A DNA stretch of 60,352 bases, from positions 1 through 60,352 of the forward strand of contig JAQUPG010000009.1 of assembly GCA_028716725.1 (NCBI GenBank). Reading direction: 5' to 3'. Positions 1-59,006 of the stretch are shown here, one piece after another (position 1 is the stretch's first letter; every line of letters starts with the position of its first letter). This DNA is from Patescibacteria group bacterium. Its GTDB lineage: Bacteria; Patescibacteriota; Patescibacteriia; Patescibacteriales; JAQTRU01. Below the pieces are notes generated by a model. It had not been told where the DNA came from, searched no databases, and worked only from the letters and a program-made list of their open reading frames with translations. The translations under genes were made by a program, and so were the position numbers.

Positions 1-923
1 ATATGATCAGCAATAATGCGCATTTCTTTATCCCGATTTATATATCCGCTATTCTCAACATTCGGCAAAAAAGATTCTATTTTAGAGCCTGCTCTCGTAT
101 ATTTTTCCGTCGTATGATAACTATACTGTTTTTGCGATAATTGTTCGATCTTTCGTATTATGTTAATAAATAAATCAGTTTGATAATTGTCATCTAAACC
201 ATTCAAAACTGCCAAAGTCCGCTCCAATCCCATCCCAGTATCCACGTTTTTTTGTTTCAAATCAGTTAAACGACCATCTGGTTTATGTGGAGTAGGTACT
301 TTATTGTACATCATAAAAACATCATTCCAAATTTCTACCCATCTTTCATTTCTAACATCAAAATCTTTTGGGGCTTTCCCTGGACCGGTCCAATAAAACA
401 TTTCCGTATCCGGACCACATGGACCAAACTTTAGCCCCCACCAGTTGTCTTTTGTACCTAATTCTGCAATACGAGACTGTGGTACCCCCAATGCCATCCA
501 TATTTTTTTTGATTCTTCATCTTTTGGAATTTGATCTTTGCCACGAAAAACCGAAACGGCGATTTTATTTTTATCAAGCCCTAGGCAGTCCGGCGAAGTT
601 AAAAACTCCCAGCTTAATTTTATGGCTTCTTCCTTAAAATAATCGCCCAAAGACCAGTTGCCAAGCATTTCAAAAAAAGTATGGTGGGTAGCGTCACCCA
701 CGTCGTCAATATCGTCCGTCCGCACGCATTTTTGCGCATCAACCAAGCGCTGGCCTTCCGGATGCTTTTCTCCCATTAAATAAGGGACTAATGGATGCAT
801 GCCCGCGGTCGTAAAAAGAGCGGTCGGGTCGTTTTCCGGAATTAAAGAAGCGCTCGGGATAATCGCGTGCCCCCGGGCTTTGAAAAACTCCAAATATTTC
901 TGTCGTAGTTCTCTGGAAGTCAT
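1..923 (-). CDS. alaS: Alanyl-tRNA synthetase, N-terminal part (3' end runs off the window)
   Basis: Absent from the ORF track because it is truncated. The reverse-complement translation from the ATG at 923 reads MTSRELRQKYLEFFKARGHAIIPSASLIPENDPTALFTTAGMHPLVPYLMGEKHPEG...HHTFFEMLGNWSLGDYFK, the typical AlaRS catalytic-core N-terminus. Confidence 0.9.
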   Translation of the reverse strand, partial: MTSRELRQKYLEFFKARGHAIIPSASLIPENDPTALFTTAGMHPLVPYLMGEKHPEGQRLVDAQKCVRTDDIDDVGDATHHTFFEMLGNWSLGDYFKEEAIKLSWEFLTSPDCLGLDKNKIAVSVFRGKDQIPKDEESKKIWMALGVPQSRIAELGTKDNWWGLKFGPCGPDTEMFYWTGPGKAPKDFDVRNERWVEIWNDVFMMYNKVPTPHKPDGRLTDLKQKNVDTGMGLERTLAVLNGLDDNYQTDLFINIIRKIEQLSQKQYSYHTTEKYTRAGSKIESFLPNVENSGYINRDKEMRIIADH

Positions 924-1014
924 AAATTAATAATTAAATAAGCCAAAATGAATTTGCGAATTTTCTATTCATCCTGCCTCGCCGAAGTCCCGACGTCTCG
1001 GGATGAAGGCGGGT
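924..1014. repeat. Insertion carrying a GC-rich hairpin (GTCCCGA-N4-TCGGGAyGAAGGCGG family), flanked by 20-bp direct repeats
   Basis: The hairpin is tcccgacgtctcggga followed by tgaaggcgggt. The direct repeats at 904-923 and 1015-1034 match at 16 of 20 positions. Confidence 0.7.
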
Positions 1015-1092
1015 CGCAGCTCTTTAGAAGTCATGGTTTTAGTTTAAAATAAAAAAAAGTTTTAAGCAACTAGAGTCCCAGCGAAGCGTCCT

Positions 1093-7058: not shown

Positions 7059-7129
7059 CCTCACCCCATCGTCCCGAGGCTTCGGGACTCTTTCCCCTCT
7101 CCTAATTAGGAGAGGGGTTAGGGGTGAGG
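7059..7129. repeat. Nested-palindrome element, copy A (3' of dnaK)
   Basis: cctcacccc...gtcccgaggcttcgggac...cccctctcctaattaggagagggg...ggggtgagg. The 24-nt core is a perfect palindrome. Confidence 0.8.
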
Positions 7130-10710: not shown

Positions 10711-10779
10711 AATTAAATTGTTAAATTGTTAAATTGCTCACGCTCCCCAACAATTCAGCAATTTAGCAATTTAACAATT
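10711..10779. repeat. AT-rich word hairpin between grpE and hsp20
   Basis: aattaaattgttaaattgttaaattgct ... caattcagcaatttagcaatttaacaatt form imperfect inverted arms. Confidence 0.7.
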
Positions 10780-11632
10780 AACCAACAACCACTTTCGCTG
10801 CCACGATAACTTTCCCGTTCAACTTATATCCCGGCCTTAATTCCTTTACCACCTTTTCGCCCCCCTGCCCTGAGCCTGCCGAAGGGCCTTCAATCGCTTC
10901 CATCGTATTATGGTCAAATTTTTCTCCAACCGTTTTTATTTCTTCCACTCCGGCTGATTCTAAAATATCTTTAAACTGCCGGATAACATGCTTTATGCCT
11001 TCCAGCCAGCCGTTTTTTTCCACGGTTTCGTCAACGTGCGCCAAAGACATCTTTAAATTATCGTAGACCGGAATTATGGAGAGAATTAAATCCTCGTTAG
11101 CGTATTTTACGAACTCCACCTTTTCCTGCGCCGTCCGCTTTAATAAATTCTGGTAATCGGCTAAGGCGAGCAGATATTTATGTTTAAAATCTTCATCTGA
11201 TTTATCGCCCGAAAAATATTTAAGAATTAATTGATAGGTGGTTTCAGCTATTTCATCTTTTTTCTTCAGCCATTCCTTAATAGTCAGCCATTTATACCCG
11301 CTATTTTCTTCGTTTAAAATTACCTTCTGCTCTCCGGACGCTTTTACCTTATAAAGGAAGGACACTAAATGATTAACCTCGCCGGTAAACTTACCCCCCA
11401 AATCGGGCATATTATTAAATCCCAAAAATTCTATATCCCTTATGTCCAGGTTAGTTTCTTCTTTAACTTCCCGTTTTACAGTTTCTTCAAATTTTTCCCC
11501 GATTTCAACATGACCGCCGGTAATATTAAACTTATTCTGCCAATATCTGTGCGATGCCAAAAGCAACTCTGACTTATCATTAAAGATAAACACACCGACG
11601 ACAACTCTCGGATATTTTTTATCTTCACTCAT
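10778..11632 (-). CDS. grpE: Nudix hydrolase domain fused to nucleotide-exchange factor GrpE
   Basis: The N-terminal ~140 aa carry a Nudix box, GHVEIGEKFEETVKREVKEETNL. The C-terminal ~140 aa are GrpE (ADYQNLLKRTAQEK...IIPVYDNL...GVEEIKTVGEKFDHNTMEAI...GYKLNGKVIVAAKVVV). Confidence 0.8.
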   Translation of the reverse strand: MSEDKKYPRVVVGVFIFNDKSELLLASHRYWQNKFNITGGHVEIGEKFEETVKREVKEETNLDIRDIEFLGFNNMPDLGGKFTGEVNHLVSFLYKVKASGEQKVILNEENSGYKWLTIKEWLKKKDEIAETTYQLILKYFSGDKSDEDFKHKYLLALADYQNLLKRTAQEKVEFVKYANEDLILSIIPVYDNLKMSLAHVDETVEKNGWLEGIKHVIRQFKDILESAGVEEIKTVGEKFDHNTMEAIEGPSAGSGQGGEKVVKELRPGYKLNGKVIVAAKVVVG

Positions 11633-11635
11633 AAA

Positions 11636-12316
11636 TTATCTATGTATTAAACTATTAACATACTTAATCACGGCCAGATTCTTTTCATAATCCATCCGCA
11701 TCGGGCCTAAAATTCCGAATAAGCCGGTTTTGCCGCTCCGCCTGTATTTAGAAAAAATCGTGGAGCAGGAATCGCCGAAAGGATTGGCCGAACCGAGTAA
11801 AATTTCCGTTTCTTTCACTTCGTTAAAAATATCGTCAATAATTTCGTCCATCCTATCAATAATCGCCGAAATATCGTAAATTAAATTCGGGTTGGAAAAC
11901 TCCGGCTGGGAAAATAAATTGGAAATGCCGGTGTAATAAAGATTGTTTTTATGGAAAGCCCAGAAAATCGCCTGACCGGAAATTTTTGCCATTTCTTTGG
12001 CCGCCTGCTTAAAGCTCGCTTCGTCATTTCCTTTTAAAGCTTTCTTTAAAATTTCCGCTTCTTTATCGGCCAATTGTTTTTCTTTTAAACTAGCCAGATA
12101 CAAGTTATAGGCCTTTTCCGTAGGCACCCGGCCGGCCGAAGTATGGGGCTGAACTATAAAATCGTCTTCTTCCAAAGCCGCCATTTCGTTTCGGACCGTG
12201 GCCGGAGAAATATCCAGGCGGTATTTATCAACCAAAACGCCTGACCCTACCGGAGCGCCAGTTTTAATATGCTCTTTTATGATCGTATTTAGAATTATGA
12301 GCTTTCTCTCATCCAT
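11636..12316 (-). CDS. hrcA: Heat-inducible repressor HrcA (short form)
   Basis: N-terminal winged HTH (ILNTIIKEHIKTGAPVGSGVL...ISPATVRNEMAALEE). A perfect CIRCE lies immediately upstream. At 226 aa it is shorter than the ~340 aa typical of HrcA. Confidence 0.8.
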   Translation of the reverse strand: MDERKLIILNTIIKEHIKTGAPVGSGVLVDKYRLDISPATVRNEMAALEEDDFIVQPHTSAGRVPTEKAYNLYLASLKEKQLADKEAEILKKALKGNDEASFKQAAKEMAKISGQAIFWAFHKNNLYYTGISNLFSQPEFSNPNLIYDISAIIDRMDEIIDDIFNEVKETEILLGSANPFGDSCSTIFSKYRRSGKTGLFGILGPMRMDYEKNLAVIKYVNSLIHR

Positions 12317-12322
12317 ATTCCC

Positions 12323-12350
12323 ATTATAACATCATTAGCACTCTTGTCAA
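12323..12350 (-). promoter_or_regulatory. hrcA promoter, TTGACA-N16-TATAAT; probably produces a leaderless mRNA
   Basis: On the minus strand the sequence is TTGACAagagtgctaatgatgtTATAATgggaatATG. Only 6 nt separate the -10 box from the start codon. Confidence 0.75.
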
Positions 12351-12361
12351 GAGAGTGCTAA
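12335..12361. promoter_or_regulatory. CIRCE operator (HrcA binding site), perfect consensus
   Basis: TTAGCACTC-ttgtcaaga-GAGTGCTAA. It lies 19 bp upstream of the hrcA ATG and overlaps the -35 box. Confidence 0.95.
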
Positions 12362-12363
12362 AA

Positions 12364-12422
12364 CATTGTTTTCCCCTGCTTGTCCCGCCGTAGTCCCGAG
12401 CTTGTCGAGGGACGAAGGCGGA
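12364..12422. repeat. 59-bp GC-rich hairpin element of the same family, flanked by perfect 17-bp direct repeats
   Basis: ...ccgtagtcccgagcttgtcgagggacgaaggcgga. The direct repeat tcaagagagtgctaaaa occurs at 12347-12363 and 12423-12439. Confidence 0.75.
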
Positions 12423-12456
12423 TCAAGAGAGTGCTAAAAGATAGGCTTGCCTCGCA

Positions 12457-12531
12457 CCTCACCCCGTCGTCCCGCCAGCTGGCGGGACTCCTTCCCCTCT
12501 CCTAATTAGGAGAGGGGGTTAGGGGGTGAGG
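12457..12531. repeat. Nested-palindrome element, copy B (3' of the IMPDH-like gene)
   Basis: It has the same architecture and the same cccctctcctaattaggagagggg core as copy A. The inner hairpin differs (cccgccagctggcggg). Confidence 0.8.
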
Positions 12532-12584
12532 TATAAAAAAGGGATCACGCTTTAACGCAATCCCTTGTTTGATTGTTTTTATTC

Positions 12585-14078
12585 TTAATCGAGTCTTGTC
12601 CCGATCTGCTGCTGTCCGGCCTGGGTGAATCTGACAAAAGCTATCGGCCGATTGCCGAATTCGTGCAAAGCCGCAAGATTAGCGGCTCCGGCATGGGCAA
12701 ACCCTCCCTGGATTAATTCTATATCCCCTCCTATCCAGGTTCTTAAGGGCCCGCGGTGCCTTACCCTGCCTTCCACTCCTTCTGGCGCGGTTTTGCCTTG
12801 ATACCGGCTTCGGGACATCCTGGCTTTTATTGCTTTGGAAGAAGCCATACCCCAGTATTGGACAAAACCCTCATTATCTACACCGTACGTCCGGCAAGAA
12901 AATGATTCGCTGGCCGCGACCAGCCATTTCCCGGCCATACAAACGTCGCCACCCGCGGCTAAAGCAATAACCATATCGCCCGGGCCCTCAATACTACCGT
13001 CGGGAATAATGGCTGGAGCATTTGCCCCCATCTTCTGGCGGATAAAATCAAGTTCCCGGATTAAAGTAAACATGGGGACCCCGGCACCGGTTACCTGCGA
13101 AGTTGTGCAGATTGAACCCGGGCCGATACCAGGTTTGACTCCGTGAGCTCCAGCCTGAGCCAGACGATAATAGCCATCAATATCTGCCACATTACCACCA
13201 ATAACCGCGGCTCGGCCGTTAGCCCTTTCTACCACTGCCTTTACCGCTTCCTCAGTCTGCCTAATTACATCTGGACAATTACCGTGGCTGCTGTCAACGA
13301 CGATTATCCCCGCTCCCATTTCCAGAGCCTGATATGCTCGCTCTAAGTCGGACTTTTCTGTCCCGATGGCTATACCTACCAACGGCTTGTCATTATAGAA
13401 AGTCGGATCGGCAACGAAAAAATCCTTCATAAAATAAATACCCTGAAACCTGTTCTTCCCGTCTAAAATGGGAAGGACTGAACATTCCTGTTCGTTGAGC
13501 AGTCTGTTCTTTATCGTTTCAAACGGGGTATCAACTTTTTCAACTTTGAGTTGCGACCGCGGTTTCATCCATTTCTTTATCGGGTCAGAGAGATGTTTCT
13601 TAAAAGAAATTTCGCTAGTAAATATTACGCCGACCAGCACTCTGTTCCTGCCGATTATCGGAATGGTGCTGAAACCAAACTTTTCCAAAATATCCTGGAC
13701 ATTGGCCAAGGTCTGGTCTTGATGCAGGGATTTCGGTTCTGAAACCAAGCACGGCTTATGAGTTAAGGCCTCTTCAAGCCAGTCCAACTGCACCTTAGCT
13801 TCCGGATCACGGTAAAGAACCCCACAACCGCCGACCTCGAAAAGGGCCTTGGCCATATCCGGTCCGGAAACCGCATCCATAGCCGCGGATAGGAGGGGAA
13901 AATTGAGCTTCACCGGACCGATTTGGCTCGATAAGTCCGCTCCCAAAGGATGGACTTCGGAAAATACGGGACGAATCCTTACTTCCCGAAGCGTATATCC
14001 TTCGATCGGATTAACTAGCCCCCCGCTCCTGAAAAGCTGCGGATACATTTCCGCATAAACGTCTTCTACAAAACCCAT
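12585..14078 (-). CDS. IMP dehydrogenase/GMP reductase-family protein with a CBS pair
   Basis: It has the GIGPGSICTT catalytic loop, SAAMD, a CBS-like insert and EGVEG. Other loops are divergent (IPDGSIEGPGD instead of IADGGI...). It is visibly GC-richer than its neighbours. Confidence 0.75.
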   Translation of the reverse strand: MGFVEDVYAEMYPQLFRSGGLVNPIEGYTLREVRIRPVFSEVHPLGADLSSQIGPVKLNFPLLSAAMDAVSGPDMAKALFEVGGCGVLYRDPEAKVQLDWLEEALTHKPCLVSEPKSLHQDQTLANVQDILEKFGFSTIPIIGRNRVLVGVIFTSEISFKKHLSDPIKKWMKPRSQLKVEKVDTPFETIKNRLLNEQECSVLPILDGKNRFQGIYFMKDFFVADPTFYNDKPLVGIAIGTEKSDLERAYQALEMGAGIIVVDSSHGNCPDVIRQTEEAVKAVVERANGRAAVIGGNVADIDGYYRLAQAGAHGVKPGIGPGSICTTSQVTGAGVPMFTLIRELDFIRQKMGANAPAIIPDGSIEGPGDMVIALAAGGDVCMAGKWLVAASESFSCRTYGVDNEGFVQYWGMASSKAIKARMSRSRYQGKTAPEGVEGRVRHRGPLRTWIGGDIELIQGGFAHAGAANLAALHEFGNRPIAFVRFTQAGQQQIGTRLD

Positions 14079-33663: not shown

Positions 33664-33741
33664 GCGGGCATTGCCCGCGTGCCGTCGCTAAAGCTATGGC
33701 GACGTGCGACCGTAGTCCCGAAGGCTCGGGACGAAGGCGGG
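33664..33741. repeat. Cluster of three GC-rich hairpins abutting the 5' end of tRNA-Gly
   Basis: The hairpins are gcgggcattgcccgc, gtcgctaaagctatggcgac, and gtcccgaaggctcgggac followed by gaaggcggg. The last element overlaps tRNA positions 1-5. Confidence 0.7.
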
Positions 33742-56633: not shown

Positions 56634-59006
56634 TTATTTTAATTGGCTAATAAACGATTTTATATCGCTGTTGTCCGGAGATAATTTAAGGGCCTTCTCC
56701 GCATATTCCAGCGCTCTGGCCTTATCTCCCCCTTCCCGGTAAAGCAGGGCAATGGCCTGCGGCCAAGCAACGTCTTCCGGGTTTAACATATATCCCCTCT
56801 TGTTGTAAAAAATGGCCTTATCTAAATCTCCCTTTTTATAATAAACATCCGCTATTTCTTTGTAAAGGCGCAAATAACTCGGATTAAATTCCAGCGCCTG
56901 CCGATAATAATCCAGGGCCTTGTCCCAGTCTTCCTGATAGCCCGCGGCCAAACCCATCATCTCAAATAAATGCACTTCTTCCGACTTTATCTCTTCCTTG
57001 TGCTCATTATTAAGAAAGGGGTTATCCAGAGCCGGAAAAATGGCGGCCGCCTTATTAAAATCAGCCATGGCCGCTTCATAGTCTCTCTGCCAAAGCTTCA
57101 TTCTGCCCAAATCTTCATAAGTCGTAGTGATAAAGGGGCTTATTTCTATTAAATTCTTATAATCTCCCTCAGCCCCCTCATAATAAGCCGGATCAATATA
57201 ATACCCGAACAAGGACTTGGCATGGGCGATATGGGTTAAGGCGTAAAATCCATATTCGCGGGGACCGATAGAATTGGCCATGCTAAGAATATTATTATAT
57301 AAATCAAGCCGGCTTTCTTTTGAGGCTACGGCCTCAAAACAATTTAAATTGTGGTAAATATAGCGTTCCTTGTAAAAAGTGCTTATCGGGTTTAAGGCAA
57401 CGGTTTTTTCCATATTATCCAAAATTTGGCGGCAATCTTTCCTTACCTCCGCTTTCCTGGTTTTCATATAATAATAATCAGCCCGCCAGGCATTAAGGTT
57501 ATAATAACAGATTAAAACTGCGCTTAAAAAAAGCAGGGCCAGCCAGATTAAAATTAAAGAAACCGGCTGAAAAAAATTTTTTTCTCTTCCGCCGGAGCGG
57601 CCGAAGGAAGAGGCGGGAAAAATAATAACCGCCAGCATGGCCAGCATGAGATAAAAACAAACATAACCGACCGTCAAAGAAAAACTTAATAAGTTATTAG
57701 AAAAATAACCGGCCAGCGCGGCCAAAAGAAAAATAACCAGCCAGGACTCTCTGGTGGGGGCCGATGTCTTTAAATACCGAAACGCCACCATAAAAATATA
57801 ACCCAGAAATAAAGTGAAAAAAATCAGCCCGGCTAAGCCGAATTGTAAAATTATATCAAATAAAGCGTTATGGGAACGGTCCGGAAAAGTATTTATTTCT
57901 TCATATATGCCCCACTCCGGCTGGTAATCTTTAACAAAAATATCAGCCAGCGTTTCCGGCCCGTAACCGATTAACTTTCTCTCCCAACTAGCCTGCCTGA
58001 ATTCCCGCCAAGCCGCCTGCCAATAATAAAGCCTTATCCTGTTAGAACCGCTCTTTAAATAAAAAATGCTTTCCAGCCTGTTGGAAAAATTTAATTTCCC
58101 GGGTATTTGCGAAAAATCCTTCTTTAAATAAAAAATATTAAAAGAAACCGCAATAACAATTCCGGCCAACCCCATTCCGATCAGGCCCAAAGCCATTTTT
58201 TTCTTTTTCTTTATAAACAGAAATAAAACCGCTAAAAGGAAGAGAAAAGTAAAAAGGCCCAACCAGGCCGCCCGGCTATAAGTAAAAATCAGGCAGGCGG
58301 TTTGGGCTAGTATTAGAACAGCGGCCAGGAAACGGCTGAACCAACGTTTATATAAAAAGATAAAGCCGAAAATACTTAAAGGAATAACCAGAATCAAATA
58401 TTGCCCAAAAAAATTAGGCTGGCCTAAAGTAGAAAAAATTCTGCCGGTATAAGTAATCTTCTCTTCCCAATCCAGGGGGTCAAGATTAAAATATTGAAGT
58501 AAACCGTAAAGACAGACAGGAATTGAAGAAAATATCAAAGCTTCTACGGCCCTTTTTACCCTTGGCCAGTCTCTCAAAGTTAAAGCCAGAAGAATAAAAA
58601 ACATCCAATAATGGAGAAAGTTATAAAAACCCTGCTGCCGGCCATAACTGCCCCAAAAACTCAAATCAGGATGAATTGAAAAATAGGTAGAAATAAAGAC
58701 TGACAAGCCGAACAGAACCAATAATATAAACGGTTTCCGGAAAGAGCGCCAGGGGCCAATCCCGCCAATAAATCCCGCACCTTTCAGCGGTGCCTGATAC
58801 ACCGCCGAAAGGTGCGGGATAAAAACTTTGGCGGTAAAGGCCAAGAAAGCTATCGTTAAAAGAACCCTGAAGATAACCGCCTTATTAAGTTCAAAAACAT
58901 TATAATTCTCCTGGGTAAAGGCAAAATAAACGGGAACAAGAAAAATTATACCCAGTAAAATTGTTTCCTGCAGATAATCGCAAATTTTCGCAATTTTATT
59001 GACCAT
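56634..59006 (-). CDS. O-antigen-ligase (Wzy_C)-domain polytopic membrane protein with C-terminal TPR repeats
   Basis: Multi-TM N-terminal part with YSRAAWLGL and SHNALFDIILQFGLAG (Wzy_C-like). The C-terminal ~250 aa are TPR-like (ALDYYRQALEFNP, KARALEYAEKALKLSP). Confidence 0.75.
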   Translation of the reverse strand: MVNKIAKICDYLQETILLGIIFLVPVYFAFTQENYNVFELNKAVIFRVLLTIAFLAFTAKVFIPHLSAVYQAPLKGAGFIGGIGPWRSFRKPFILLVLFGLSVFISTYFSIHPDLSFWGSYGRQQGFYNFLHYWMFFILLALTLRDWPRVKRAVEALIFSSIPVCLYGLLQYFNLDPLDWEEKITYTGRIFSTLGQPNFFGQYLILVIPLSIFGFIFLYKRWFSRFLAAVLILAQTACLIFTYSRAAWLGLFTFLFLLAVLFLFIKKKKKMALGLIGMGLAGIVIAVSFNIFYLKKDFSQIPGKLNFSNRLESIFYLKSGSNRIRLYYWQAAWREFRQASWERKLIGYGPETLADIFVKDYQPEWGIYEEINTFPDRSHNALFDIILQFGLAGLIFFTLFLGYIFMVAFRYLKTSAPTRESWLVIFLLAALAGYFSNNLLSFSLTVGYVCFYLMLAMLAVIIFPASSFGRSGGREKNFFQPVSLILIWLALLFLSAVLICYYNLNAWRADYYYMKTRKAEVRKDCRQILDNMEKTVALNPISTFYKERYIYHNLNCFEAVASKESRLDLYNNILSMANSIGPREYGFYALTHIAHAKSLFGYYIDPAYYEGAEGDYKNLIEISPFITTTYEDLGRMKLWQRDYEAAMADFNKAAAIFPALDNPFLNNEHKEEIKSEEVHLFEMMGLAAGYQEDWDKALDYYRQALEFNPSYLRLYKEIADVYYKKGDLDKAIFYNKRGYMLNPEDVAWPQAIALLYREGGDKARALEYAEKALKLSPDNSDIKSFISQLK

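What the first reader, a model, noticed from the sequence alone, without database searches (positions are those of the whole stretch)
12316..12439. The hrcA control region has a perfect CIRCE over the -35 box and a probably leaderless start, and a hairpin element has inserted into it with a 17-bp target duplication
On the minus strand, TTGACA-N16-TATAAT is embedded in a consensus CIRCE (TTAGCACTC-N9-GAGTGCTAA). The hrcA ATG begins 6 nt after the -10 box, which implies a leaderless transcript.

Immediately upstream, the 17-mer tcaagagagtgctaaaa, which is one CIRCE half-site plus part of the spacer, is repeated exactly at 12347-12363 and 12423-12439. The two copies flank a 59-bp GC-rich hairpin element (...gtcccgagcttgtcgagggacgaaggcgga). 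That arrangement is the signature of an insertion with a 17-bp target-site duplication. It leaves an extra CIRCE half-site 76 bp upstream of the operator. Together with the alaS case, this argues that the hairpin family is, or was, mobile by a mechanism that makes long staggered duplications.
Basis: seen in the sequence. Interest (0 to 1): 0.65.

Follow-up and report, generated by a model that had tools for sequence, protein, structure and literature searches.

The report
Hairpin-split spare copy of hrcA operator
Upstream of the heat-shock repressor gene hrcA in an uncultured Patescibacteria bacterium sits a leftover second copy of half its operator; it arose when a small GC-rich hairpin repeat landed in the operator and the hit sequence was copied, which this repeat family also does at tRNA genes and a start codon, so it shows an unusual insertion mode and not a new regulatory switch.

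Summary
These are a perfect CIRCE, a 12/12 sigma-70 promoter with its -35 in the CIRCE spacer, an ATG 6 nt after the -10 box, and an exact 17-mer repeated 76 bp apart around a GC-rich hairpin.

The "59-bp element with a 17-bp target duplication" reading is only partly right.
- The insert is composite. It has an outer hairpin repeat ("X", about 25-40 copies in the genome), a nested GTAG-tagged 18-21-nt hairpin ("H") and a 15-bp remnant.
- The arrangement is not recent. All four species of the genus have it, as do at least 7 genera in 6 families of the order. It was found nowhere else in the phylum.
- In most relatives X sits at TTGA^C inside an upstream second copy of the whole promoter-operator. 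That copy keeps its right CIRCE arm and is followed by a U-run, so it looks like a terminator.
- The family does insert with long duplications. alaS and tRNA-Asn have empty sites in sister species.

Leaderless translation is supported only indirectly, by a genome-wide -10/N6/ATG spike. The mechanism of the duplication is unresolved.

The parts
11636..12316 (-). hrcA, short 226-aa form
   Evidence: ORF. Pfam HrcA PF01628, E = 1.3e-17. The same ~226-aa form is found in 59 of 61 relatives.
12323..12328 (-). -10 box TATAAT, 6 nt upstream of the ATG at 12316-12314
   Evidence: Genome-wide, 33 long ORFs start exactly 6 nt after TAnAAT, against a background of about 8.
12345..12350 (-). -35 box TTGACA, inside the CIRCE spacer
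   Evidence: 12 of 12 consensus positions, 16-nt spacer.
12335..12361 (.). CIRCE, the HrcA operator (TTAGCACTC-N9-GAGTGCTAA), perfect
   Evidence: It is one of three CIRCEs in the genome; the other two precede groES and clpB.
12347..12363 (.). Proximal 17-mer: left CIRCE arm plus spacer up to TTGA of the working operator (read on the minus strand)
12364..12378 (-). 15-bp remnant (caggggaaaacaatg) between X and the working operator. It occupies the place where relatives have the right CIRCE arm, a U-run and a -10-like box.
   Evidence: Comparison of upstream regions.
12379..12422 (-). X hairpin repeat, tCCGCC...GGCGGGACAAG: outer stem CCGCC/GGCGG plus a 3' G-rich tail
   Evidence: Family catalogue. 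Fold -18.2 kcal/mol. Metagenome depth is 8-10x over 12378-12434, and foreign contigs end at 12386-88 and 12420-23.
12393..12413 (.). Nested H hairpin (GTCCCGA..TCGGGAC type, here with a 2-nt bulge), preceded by GTAG on the + strand
   Evidence: about 16-18 H copies, in several different outer contexts. G001 has GCTAAAGC in this loop instead; G003 has a canonical H.
12423..12439 (.). Distal 17-mer: left CIRCE arm plus TCTTGA of the interrupted upstream pseudo-operator. It abuts the 5' end of X.
   Evidence: Homologous copies in relatives.
12444..12455 (-). A further X-type tail motif (GCGAGGCAAGCC) just upstream of the distal 17-mer, conserved in G001 and G003
   Evidence: Direct reading.
12457..12531 (.). 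Unrelated nested double-palindrome repeat, with a second copy at 7059-7129
12539..12566 (-). Intrinsic terminator of the upstream IMPDH-like gene
903..1034 (-). alaS comparison case: S (1034-1014), X (1013-973), unique tail (972-924), S' which is the real start (923-903)
   Evidence: The site is empty in G001-G004.
33707..33740 (+). X+H copy whose GGCGGG arm overlaps the first bases of tRNA-Gly(CCC), which starts at 33737

Best explanation
hrcA is transcribed from a consensus sigma-70 promoter whose -35 box lies in the spacer of a perfect CIRCE. HrcA therefore represses its own operon by occluding the promoter. The message probably starts at or next to the ATG, so it is probably leaderless.

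The second 17-mer is the surviving left part of an upstream partial copy of this promoter-operator. It consists of the left CIRCE arm plus the spacer as far as TTGA. That copy is interrupted at TTGA^C by a member of a dispersed GC-rich hairpin family, X. X reads 5'-CCCGCC-loop-GGCG(A)GGCARG-3', and here it carries a nested GTAG-tagged REP-like hairpin, H.

The layout [S|X|b..][S b..] is a recurring product of how this family inserts. An interrupted copy of the hit sequence sits on the 5' side of X, and an intact copy is regenerated downstream. The same layout occurs at alaS, tRNA-Asn, tRNA-Leu and tRNA-Glu in this genome, and empty sites in sister species show it arises by insertion.

At hrcA the event predates this genome. 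In many relatives the split copy, closed by its two CIRCE arms and followed by a U-run, looks like the intrinsic terminator that insulates the hrcA promoter from the upstream gene. In this genome its 3' arm and U-run have decayed and a separate terminator exists, so the 17-mer is most likely a vestige.

Shown: the anatomy, the family, the empty and filled sites, and the distribution. Inferred: promoter occlusion, leaderless start, terminator role, and the enzymology of the duplication.
For: Anatomy and statistics.

Family:
- H occurs about 16-18 times.
- X ends occur about 25-40 times.
- CGGGGCARGCA is enriched over its reversed control in all 16 relatives tested, for example 16 vs 0 in G042.
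- Metagenome depth over X is 8-10x the flanks.

Layout [S|X|b..][S b..] in G000, with the left copy always abutting the CCCGCC end:
- hrcA, 20 nt, p about 0.001.
- tRNA-Asn, 53 nt, p about 0.0005.
- tRNA-Glu, 15-20 nt, p about 0.002.
- tRNA-Leu, 14 nt, p about 0.014.
- alaS, 21 nt, p about 0.025.
- tRNA identities.
- Three of seven non-CIRCE X copies sampled in relatives show the same layout, at a tRNA 5' end and at two ATG regions, p about 0.02 each.

Empty and filled sites:
- alaS is empty in G001-G004.
- tRNA-Asn is empty in G003 and G004, has one unit in G000 and two tandem 100-bp units in G002.

hrcA arrangement in relatives:
- All four genus members, and 10 of the 30 nearest relatives read directly.
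- 13 of 316 genomes and 7 of 96 genera of the order under a strict pattern, always at hrcA.
- None among 400 other genomes of the phylum.

Upstream units:
- They fold as AGCACTCT-CTTG-A-CCCCG..CGGGG-CAGG-CA-AGAGTGCT, -23 to -37 kcal/mol, z -3.6 to -5.6.
- In 11 of 17 units a run of at least 4 U follows, where the true CIRCE has AA.
- X stems show compensatory changes.

Terminator position:
- The upstream PBP2 gene stops 3-33 nt before the unit in G042, G064 and G065.
- Relatives without the unit have an ordinary hairpin+U terminator at that position.

Leaderless class:
- TAnAAT-N6-ATG opens 33 long ORFs against a background of about 8.
- The 6-7-nt spacing recurs at hrcA in about 13 relatives from several families.
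Against: - No transcript data exist, so the start site and any termination are untested (one search found DNA runs only).
- In this genome the unit has no U-run, and the simple terminator scan does not call such compound hairpins.
- The left arm of the upstream copy is almost invariant, about 98% identical over 16 units. The right arm is degenerate. A pure terminator role does not predict this; selection on the half-site or recombination with the working operator would.
- Most X copies, about 80%, have no detectable flanking duplication.
- No enzyme could be tied to the family. GIY-YIG genes are not significantly close to X or H: 2 of 11 within 300 bp against 6% expected. The one RayT-like gene is flanked by a different palindrome.
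- One ancient event with many losses cannot be separated from repeated events. The HrcA tree needs at least 6-8 changes of state.
Confidence: 0.6

Rival explanations
1. One reading: a discrete 59-bp mobile hairpin inserted recently into the operator by a transposase that makes 17-bp staggered cuts, leaving a classic target-site duplication.
For: - An exact 17-bp direct repeat brackets the hairpin.
- The alaS copy is a lineage-specific insertion flanked by about 21-bp repeats.
- One copy in G042 has a 12-nt repeat directly on both sides.
Against: - The proximal repeat is 15 bp from the end of X, and the 59 bp are composite.
- G001, G002 and G003 all carry the arrangement; G000 and G001 share even the TTGAT junction.
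- Relatives have the right CIRCE arm and a -10-like box after X, which no flanking duplication can create.
- Duplication lengths range from 11 to 53 nt.
- No contig in four metagenomes shows the empty form.
Confidence: 0.08
2. The distal half-site plus -35-like box is kept by selection as an auxiliary or decoy binding site for HrcA or RNA polymerase. It would tune autoregulation, and the hairpin would be incidental.
For: - The upstream left arm is near-invariant in 16 units while neighbouring spacer sequence is unrecognisable even within the genus.
- In G003 both copies share the rare CC variant.
- It is the only extra perfect half-site in the genome.
Against: - From established knowledge, HrcA binds the inverted repeat as a dimer. 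Here the right arm is lost or degenerate.
- The distance from unit to operator varies from 55 to 88 bp with no helical phasing.
- The unit is absent from most of the order and from sister species with near-identical hrcA.
- Unequal recombination between the two copies could also keep the left arm homogeneous. Tandem 2-unit arrays exist in G042 and at tRNA-Asn in G002.
Confidence: 0.15
3. A plain tandem duplication of the promoter region by replication slippage came first. A hairpin repeat later landed by chance in the redundant copy, the only place where it is tolerated.
For: - X lies inside an upstream duplicate, not at its edge.
- Tandem amplification of units occurs.
Against: - Five independent loci in one 1.08-Mb genome, plus three more in relatives, show the same polarity, with the interrupted copy always abutting the 5' end of X.
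- At alaS and tRNA-Asn, relatives have neither the duplication nor X. No case was seen of a duplication without X.
Confidence: 0.12

Closest known systems
CIRCE/HrcA autoregulated hrcA-grpE-dnaK operon (Bacillus subtilis type)
   Same: - Perfect TTAGCACTC-N9-GAGTGCTAA.
- An hrcA gene directly downstream, followed by grpE and further chaperone genes.
- Further CIRCEs at groES and clpB.
   Different: - Here the operator overlaps the -35 box and is not transcribed, and the start is probably leaderless.
- HrcA is a short 226-aa form.
- An interrupted second operator copy lies upstream.
REP elements, especially GTAG-tagged REPs nested in target palindromes (Di Nocera et al. 2013, PMC3733652) and REP/RAYT systems
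   Same: - H is an 18-21-nt GC-rich palindrome preceded by GTAG. It is dispersed and nested in the loop of another palindrome (CCGCC..GGCGG).
- That paper reports GTAG REPs inserted in small CCGSSCC-n3,4-GGSSCGG palindromes.
- A RayT-like Y1 gene exists in the genome.
   Different: - Copy number is low.
- The RayT-like gene is flanked by a different palindrome.
- From established knowledge, IS200/IS605-type single-strand transposition makes no target duplication. Here long duplications accompany a fraction of copies.
MITE-type elements with target-site duplications (e.g. Correia/NEMIS, RPE)
   Same: - Small, non-coding and dispersed, with presence/absence polymorphism between close species.
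- They insert into or next to genes and promoters.
- Direct repeats of the target are present.
   Different: - There are no terminal inverted repeats distinct from the hairpin itself.
- The duplication is long (11-53 nt) and variable.
- The element sits inside the upstream copy, often followed by 8-30 nt of continuing target, and not between two clean repeats.
tRNA-targeting integrative elements that regenerate the tRNA and leave a partial copy
   Same: An intact target is restored and a truncated pseudo-copy is left beside it, repeatedly at tRNA genes.
   Different: - The material between the copies is only 30-110 bp.
- No integrase is present.
- The same thing happens at a promoter-operator and at a start codon.
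Ssn GIY-YIG single-strand nucleases with SRM/NTS hairpin repeats (Chenal et al. 2025, PMC11893778)
   Same: - Short hairpin repeats occur in a genome rich in tiny GIY-YIG genes: 12 hits in 1.08 Mb.
- Two of these genes lie within 250 bp of an X/H copy.
   Different: - H does not fit the published SRM search motif (HGTCWY...; H has GTCCCG).
- Proximity is not significant.
- Ssn is not known to insert repeats.

Membership tests
CIRCE/HrcA operator | Inverted repeat TTAGCACTC-N9-GAGTGCTAA | tested here: met
   Perfect match at 12335-12361, 0 expected by chance.
CIRCE/HrcA operator | HrcA repressor encoded in the genome; sites in front of class I heat-shock genes | tested here: met
   - Pfam HrcA.
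- The three CIRCEs of the genome precede hrcA-grpE, groES and clpB.
CIRCE/HrcA operator | HrcA binding and heat-inducible derepression | not testable with these tools
   Needs EMSA or a footprint, and expression data.
Leaderless mRNA | Transcription start at, or within about 3 nt of, the start codon | not testable with these tools
   No RNA runs hold this sequence.
Leaderless mRNA | -10 box about 6-7 nt upstream of the ATG, with no room for a Shine-Dalgarno sequence | tested here: met
   - TATAAT-gggaat-ATG.
- Genome-wide spike at N6: 33 against about 8.
- The same spacing occurs at hrcA in about 13 relatives.
Transposon/MITE with target-site duplication | Direct repeats of fixed length immediately flanking both element ends | tested here: not met
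   - The right repeat is 12-92 nt from the end of X.
- Lengths are 11-53 nt.
- Continuing target often follows X.
Transposon/MITE with target-site duplication | Empty sites in close relatives | tested here: inconclusive
   - Met for alaS and tRNA-Asn.
- Not met for hrcA within the genus.
- Sister species in other genera differ, but their whole spacer is replaced.
Transposon/MITE with target-site duplication | Terminal inverted repeats and a cognate transposase | tested here: not met
   - There are no TIRs other than the hairpin stem.
- No enzyme is linked.
GTAG-tagged REP / RAYT system | Short GC-rich palindrome with a GTAG tag at one end, dispersed in the genome | tested here: met
   GTAG-TCCCGA..TCGGGAC at 12390-12413 and in at least 6 other copies.
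GTAG-tagged REP / RAYT system | RAYT gene flanked by the same REPs (REPtron) | tested here: not met
   The single RayT-like ORF (C4:51932-52093) is flanked by a different GTAG palindrome.
Intrinsic (Rho-independent) terminator | Stable GC-rich stem immediately followed by a U-tract | tested here: not met
   - In this window the hairpin (-27 kcal/mol) has no U-run.
- The feature is met in 11 of 17 homologous units of relatives.
Ssn-related motif (SRM) repeats | Fit to the published degenerate motif HGTCWYN(0-2)YYVSBRH... | tested here: not met
   H reads GTCCCG, with C where W is required (motif; direct reading).

The most novel reading that the evidence does not exclude
Patescibacteria hairpin repeats of the X/H type may spread by break-and-repair or template-switch insertion. 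This would copy the hit sequence so that an intact target is rebuilt beside the interrupted one.

That would let the repeats colonise otherwise untouchable sites: the -35/CIRCE of hrcA, the 5' ends of tRNA genes, and the first codons of leaderless genes. Most of these are regions opened at transcription starts.

At hrcA the product would have been domesticated in one order as a CIRCE-armed terminator. This insertion mode does not appear in the papers read here.
Probability: 0.3. Interest if true: 0.7.

Novelty: new variant of a known kind. Interest (0 to 1): 0.5.

Why it matters
The operator and promoter are textbook. They show that a minimal HrcA/CIRCE circuit with promoter occlusion and probably leaderless starts operates in ultra-small bacteria.

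The more useful result concerns the repeats. Sister species give clean before-and-after pairs. These show that a small hairpin family can insert into essential sequences while the target is regenerated by a long, variable duplication.

If this is general, it explains the many pseudo-tRNA fragments, decoy start codons and duplicated half-operators seen in Patescibacteria genomes. It also points to a repair- or replication-based insertion mechanism different from classical transposition.

It warns annotators as well that an extra operator half-site in these genomes may be an insertion scar.

Tried and rejected
- **Rfam scan of 11500-13000.** Only sub-threshold noise; no known RNA family covers the unit.
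- **Simple terminator scan.** It cannot see compound hairpins with long loops, so it says nothing about the units.
- **RNA data for the transcription start.** Only DNA metagenomes hold the sequence.
- **Population variants.** No contig with the 76-bp deletion was found.
- **Donor search for the sequences that follow X (the "tails") at alaS, hrcA, tRNA-Asn and tRNA-Glu.** They are unique in the genome apart from short AT-rich words, so no donor locus was identified.
- **Before/after comparison at hrcA in sister species G075 and G059.** The whole PBP2-hrcA spacer differs, so no clean junction is available.
- **Genome-wide census of short-range direct repeats.** It is dominated by coding repeats and tRNA fragments, and was too noisy to give a clean association statistic.
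- **GIY-YIG proximity to X/H.** Not significant.
- **Cruciform extrusion of X restoring a 9-nt CIRCE spacer.** Rejected by reading: it would leave about 14 nt between the arms.
- **RNA-mediated (retro) origin of the duplications.** Rejected for hrcA, because the duplicated segment is promoter DNA upstream of the start.
Full report
**1. What is in the window**

The features below read on the minus strand.
- hrcA runs from 12316 to 11636 and encodes 226 aa. The product matches Pfam HrcA.
- Upstream lie TATAAT (12328-12323), a 16-nt spacer and TTGACA (12350-12345). This is a 12/12 consensus promoter.
- The -35 box sits in the 9-nt spacer of a perfect CIRCE at 12335-12361.
- The ATG follows the -10 box after 6 nt.
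- The 17-mer TCAAGAGAGTGCTAAAA occurs exactly twice, at 12347-12363 and 12423-12439. None is expected by chance. With one mismatch the repeat extends to 20 nt.
- The genome is a 1.08-Mb, 17-contig Patescibacteria assembly. It has three CIRCEs: at hrcA, groES and clpB.
- It has only one additional perfect half-site, and that is the distal 17-mer.
- Contigs from three further samples of the same landfill study reproduce 12261-12485 without a difference. None skips the 76 bp.

**2. The 59 bp are not one element**

The 59 bp have three parts, again read on the minus strand.
- X is an outer hairpin, tCCGCC...GGCGGGACAAG (12422-12379).
- H is a 21-nt hairpin in the loop of X (12413-12393), of the GTCCCGA-N4-TCGGGAC type. 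It is preceded by GTAG on the + strand.
- A 15-bp stretch, caggggaaaacaatg (12378-12364), follows.

H occurs about 16-18 times in the genome, in several different outer contexts.

X-type ends (GGCG(A)GGCARG or CGGGGCARGCA, closing a CCCGCC or CCCCG stem) occur about 25-40 times. Typical loops read TTCGCTnCGCT.

The end motif is strongly enriched over its reversed control in all 16 relatives tested, for example 16 vs 0 in G042.

In the metagenomes, depth over 12378-12434 is 8-10 times the flanks. Foreign contigs break at 12386-88 and 12420-23, which marks the shared core.

In G001 the same X has GCTAAAGC in place of H. G003 has a canonical H. H is therefore a separate module nested in X. GTAG-tagged REPs nested in small CCGSSCC..GGSSCGG palindromes have been described (PMC3733652).

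**3. The arrangement is shared with relatives**

The 226-aa HrcA is found in 59 of 61 relatives. I read the upstream regions of 30 of these loci.
- All four species of the genus have an upstream copy of TTAGCACTC(TC)TTGA(C), followed directly by an X-type hairpin and then the working operator.
- So do G022, G045, G042 (two units), G023, G046 and G047.

A strict pattern (left arm, 44-74 nt, full CIRCE) finds the arrangement in 13 of 316 genomes and 7 of 96 genera of the order. Every hit is at hrcA.

The pattern finds none in 400 evenly sampled genomes from the rest of the phylum. The single extra hit there is a pair of complete CIRCEs.

In most relatives the sequence after X continues with the rest of the operator: CA(A/C)GAG(T/C)G(C/T)T. 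A U-run follows, and in several cases a -10-like box at the right distance, just before the working CIRCE. TATAAT in G042 and ATAAAT in G047 are examples.

So the upstream unit is a copy of the whole promoter-operator with X inserted at TTGA^C. It is not a half-site created as a flanking duplication.

G000 and G001 share even the TTGAT junction and both X arms. The insertion is therefore older than their split. Their right arm, U-run and -10 remnant have decayed.

**4. The family does insert with long duplications**

I aligned the 40 nt to the left of each X copy against the 200 nt to its right, with a null drawn from random genome positions. Five loci in G000 stand out.

| Locus | Repeat | p (approx.) |
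|---|---|---|
| hrcA | 20 nt | 0.001 |
| tRNA-Asn | 53 nt | 0.0005 |
| tRNA-Glu, 3' end | 15-20 nt | 0.002 |
| tRNA-Leu(CAA), 5' end | 14 nt | 0.014 |
| alaS, first 21 nt | 21 nt | 0.025 |

In all five the left copy abuts the CCCGCC end of X. In four, X is followed by 8-13 nt of continuing target before other sequence and the intact copy.

Sister species provide before-and-after pairs.
- The alaS site is empty in G001, G002, G003 and G004. In G000 the upstream copy keeps the ancestral flank, and the 90 bp of X plus a unique tail are new.
- The tRNA-Asn site is empty in G003 and G004. It has one unit in G000 and two tandem 100-bp units in G002. The unit includes a copy of 42 nt of upstream spacer.

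In a small sample of X copies from relatives, three of seven non-CIRCE copies show the same layout. One is at a tRNA 5' end and two are at ATG-containing sequences, p about 0.02 each.

About 80% of copies show no duplication. The geometry, however, is an interrupted upstream copy plus a regenerated intact copy, of variable length. It is not a fixed staggered cut.

**5. One origin or many at hrcA?**

On an HrcA tree the presence of the unit is clustered: 6 of 500 shuffles do as well. It still needs at least 6-8 gains or losses.
- Sister genomes differ in state: G075 against G059, and G047 against G031.
- G023 and G300 have nearly identical HrcA but different X sequences and different CIRCE spacers.
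- Some units carry variants specific to their own operator, which suggests local origin or recombination with the working copy. Examples are CC in G003 and ACG in G047.
- Others do not match their own operator (G075).

The locus turns over fast. I cannot separate one old event with many losses and recombination from repeated insertion at TTGA^C.

Earlier notes of this scan describe hairpin or cassette insertions at the CIRCE -35 of other Patescibacteria, with 17-21-nt duplications. They fit repeated insertion, but they are unchecked leads.

**6. What the unit may do**

In relatives the unit folds into one long interrupted stem: AGCACUCU-CUUG-A-CCCCG...CGGGG-CAGG-CA-AGAGUGCU. Energies are -23 to -37 kcal/mol, with z of -3.6 to -5.6.

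In 11 of 17 units a run of at least four U follows immediately, where a true CIRCE has AA. The X stem shows compensatory changes: CG to UA, and AU to UA or UG.

In G042, G064 and G065 the co-directional PBP2 gene ends 3-33 nt before the unit. Relatives without the unit have an ordinary hairpin+U terminator at the same place.

I therefore think that in those genomes the unit serves as the intrinsic terminator that insulates the hrcA promoter. This is an inference.

In this genome an IMPDH-like gene with its own terminator (12566-12539) lies upstream. The unit has lost its 3' arm and U-run. It still folds (-27 kcal/mol) but is most likely a vestige.

One observation is not explained. The left arm is nearly invariant across units while the right arm is not. 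This keeps open a role as an auxiliary or decoy site. Variable spacing of 55-88 bp and the loss of the right arm argue against that role.

**7. Leaderless start**

No RNA data exist. There are two indirect arguments.
- TAnAAT followed by exactly 6 nt and an ATG that opens a 5'-most ORF of at least 100 aa occurs 33 times in the genome. The background at other spacings is about 8.
- The 6-7-nt spacing recurs at hrcA in about 13 relatives from several families. Other relatives have leaders of 8-100 nt.

The claim is plausible but unproven.

**8. Enzymes**

The genome has 12 GIY-YIG hits, mostly 80-115-aa ORFs. Only 2 of 11 lie within 300 bp of X or H, against 6% expected, which is not significant.

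There is one RayT-like Y1 transposase ORF, and a different GTAG palindrome flanks it.

H does not fit the published Ssn-related motif.

The enzymology of insertion and duplication remains open. Break repair with synthesis from both ends, or template switching at structured DNA, would give the observed products. Nothing here tests either idea.

**9. Verdict**

The operator and promoter are ordinary. The "17-bp target duplication" is the eroded remnant of a hairpin-split second copy of the operator, shared with relatives.

The underlying insertion mode of the hairpin family is real and documented by empty sites. I did not find it described in the papers read here. The finding is of moderate interest.

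Noticed in passing
G000 contig C4:23642-23984 (locus L093 443-785, minus strand): - tRNA-Asn(GTT) is interrupted in its anticodon loop by a group I intron (Rfam RF00028, 81.8 bits).
- The intron carries an HNH-endonuclease ORF whose own promoter has TATAAT-N6-ATG.
- G003 has the intron; G002 and G004 have an uninterrupted tRNA-Asn.
   Followed up: partly
window 11636-12316: - HrcA is only 226 aa, against about 340 aa for typical HrcA.
- The short form is conserved in 59 of 61 relatives of the order.
- The Pfam match covers only profile positions 72-213.
   Followed up: partly
window 10778-11632: GrpE is fused to an N-terminal NUDIX domain. Pfam: PF00293 at residues 8-127 and PF01025 at 145-283.
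   Followed up: partly
whole genome G000: - There is a sharp excess of -10-like boxes exactly 6 nt before start codons: 33 against a background of about 8.
- This suggests that leaderless genes are common in this genome.
- The alaS orthologues of relatives and the intron HNH gene show the same spacing.
   Followed up: partly
window 12444-12455: A further X-type tail motif (GCGAGGCAAGCC on the minus strand), without a matching stem, lies just upstream of the distal 17-mer. It is conserved in G001 and G003 and may be the remnant of a still older unit.
   Followed up: no
window 12457-12531 and 7059-7129: - A second repeat family is present: a nested double palindrome with outer stem CTCACCCC/GGGGTGAG.
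- It holds an inner H-like hairpin and a 24-nt perfect palindrome.
- Both copies lie 3' of minus-strand genes.
   Followed up: no
G002 contig C5, around 56700-56930 (locus L080): Two tandem 100-bp units, each a pseudo-tRNA-Asn 5' end split by X, precede the intact tRNA-Asn. G042 likewise has two X units before hrcA. Units can therefore amplify in tandem.
   Followed up: partly
G000 contig C4:51932-52093: - There is a single RayT/IS200-like Y1 transposase ORF of 193 aa with HUH and Y motifs.
- A 48-nt GTAG-containing palindrome of a different sequence from H or X precedes it.
- G001-G003 have 3-5 such genes each.
   Followed up: partly
G000 contig C11:4718-4744: A perfect CIRCE lies upstream of clpB, so the HrcA regulon here includes ClpB as well as hrcA-grpE and groES.
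   Followed up: partly
locus L011 (G041 contig C14): The hrcA promoter region of this relative is masked with N's directly after TTAGCACTCTCTTGAC, so its state could not be read.
   Followed up: no
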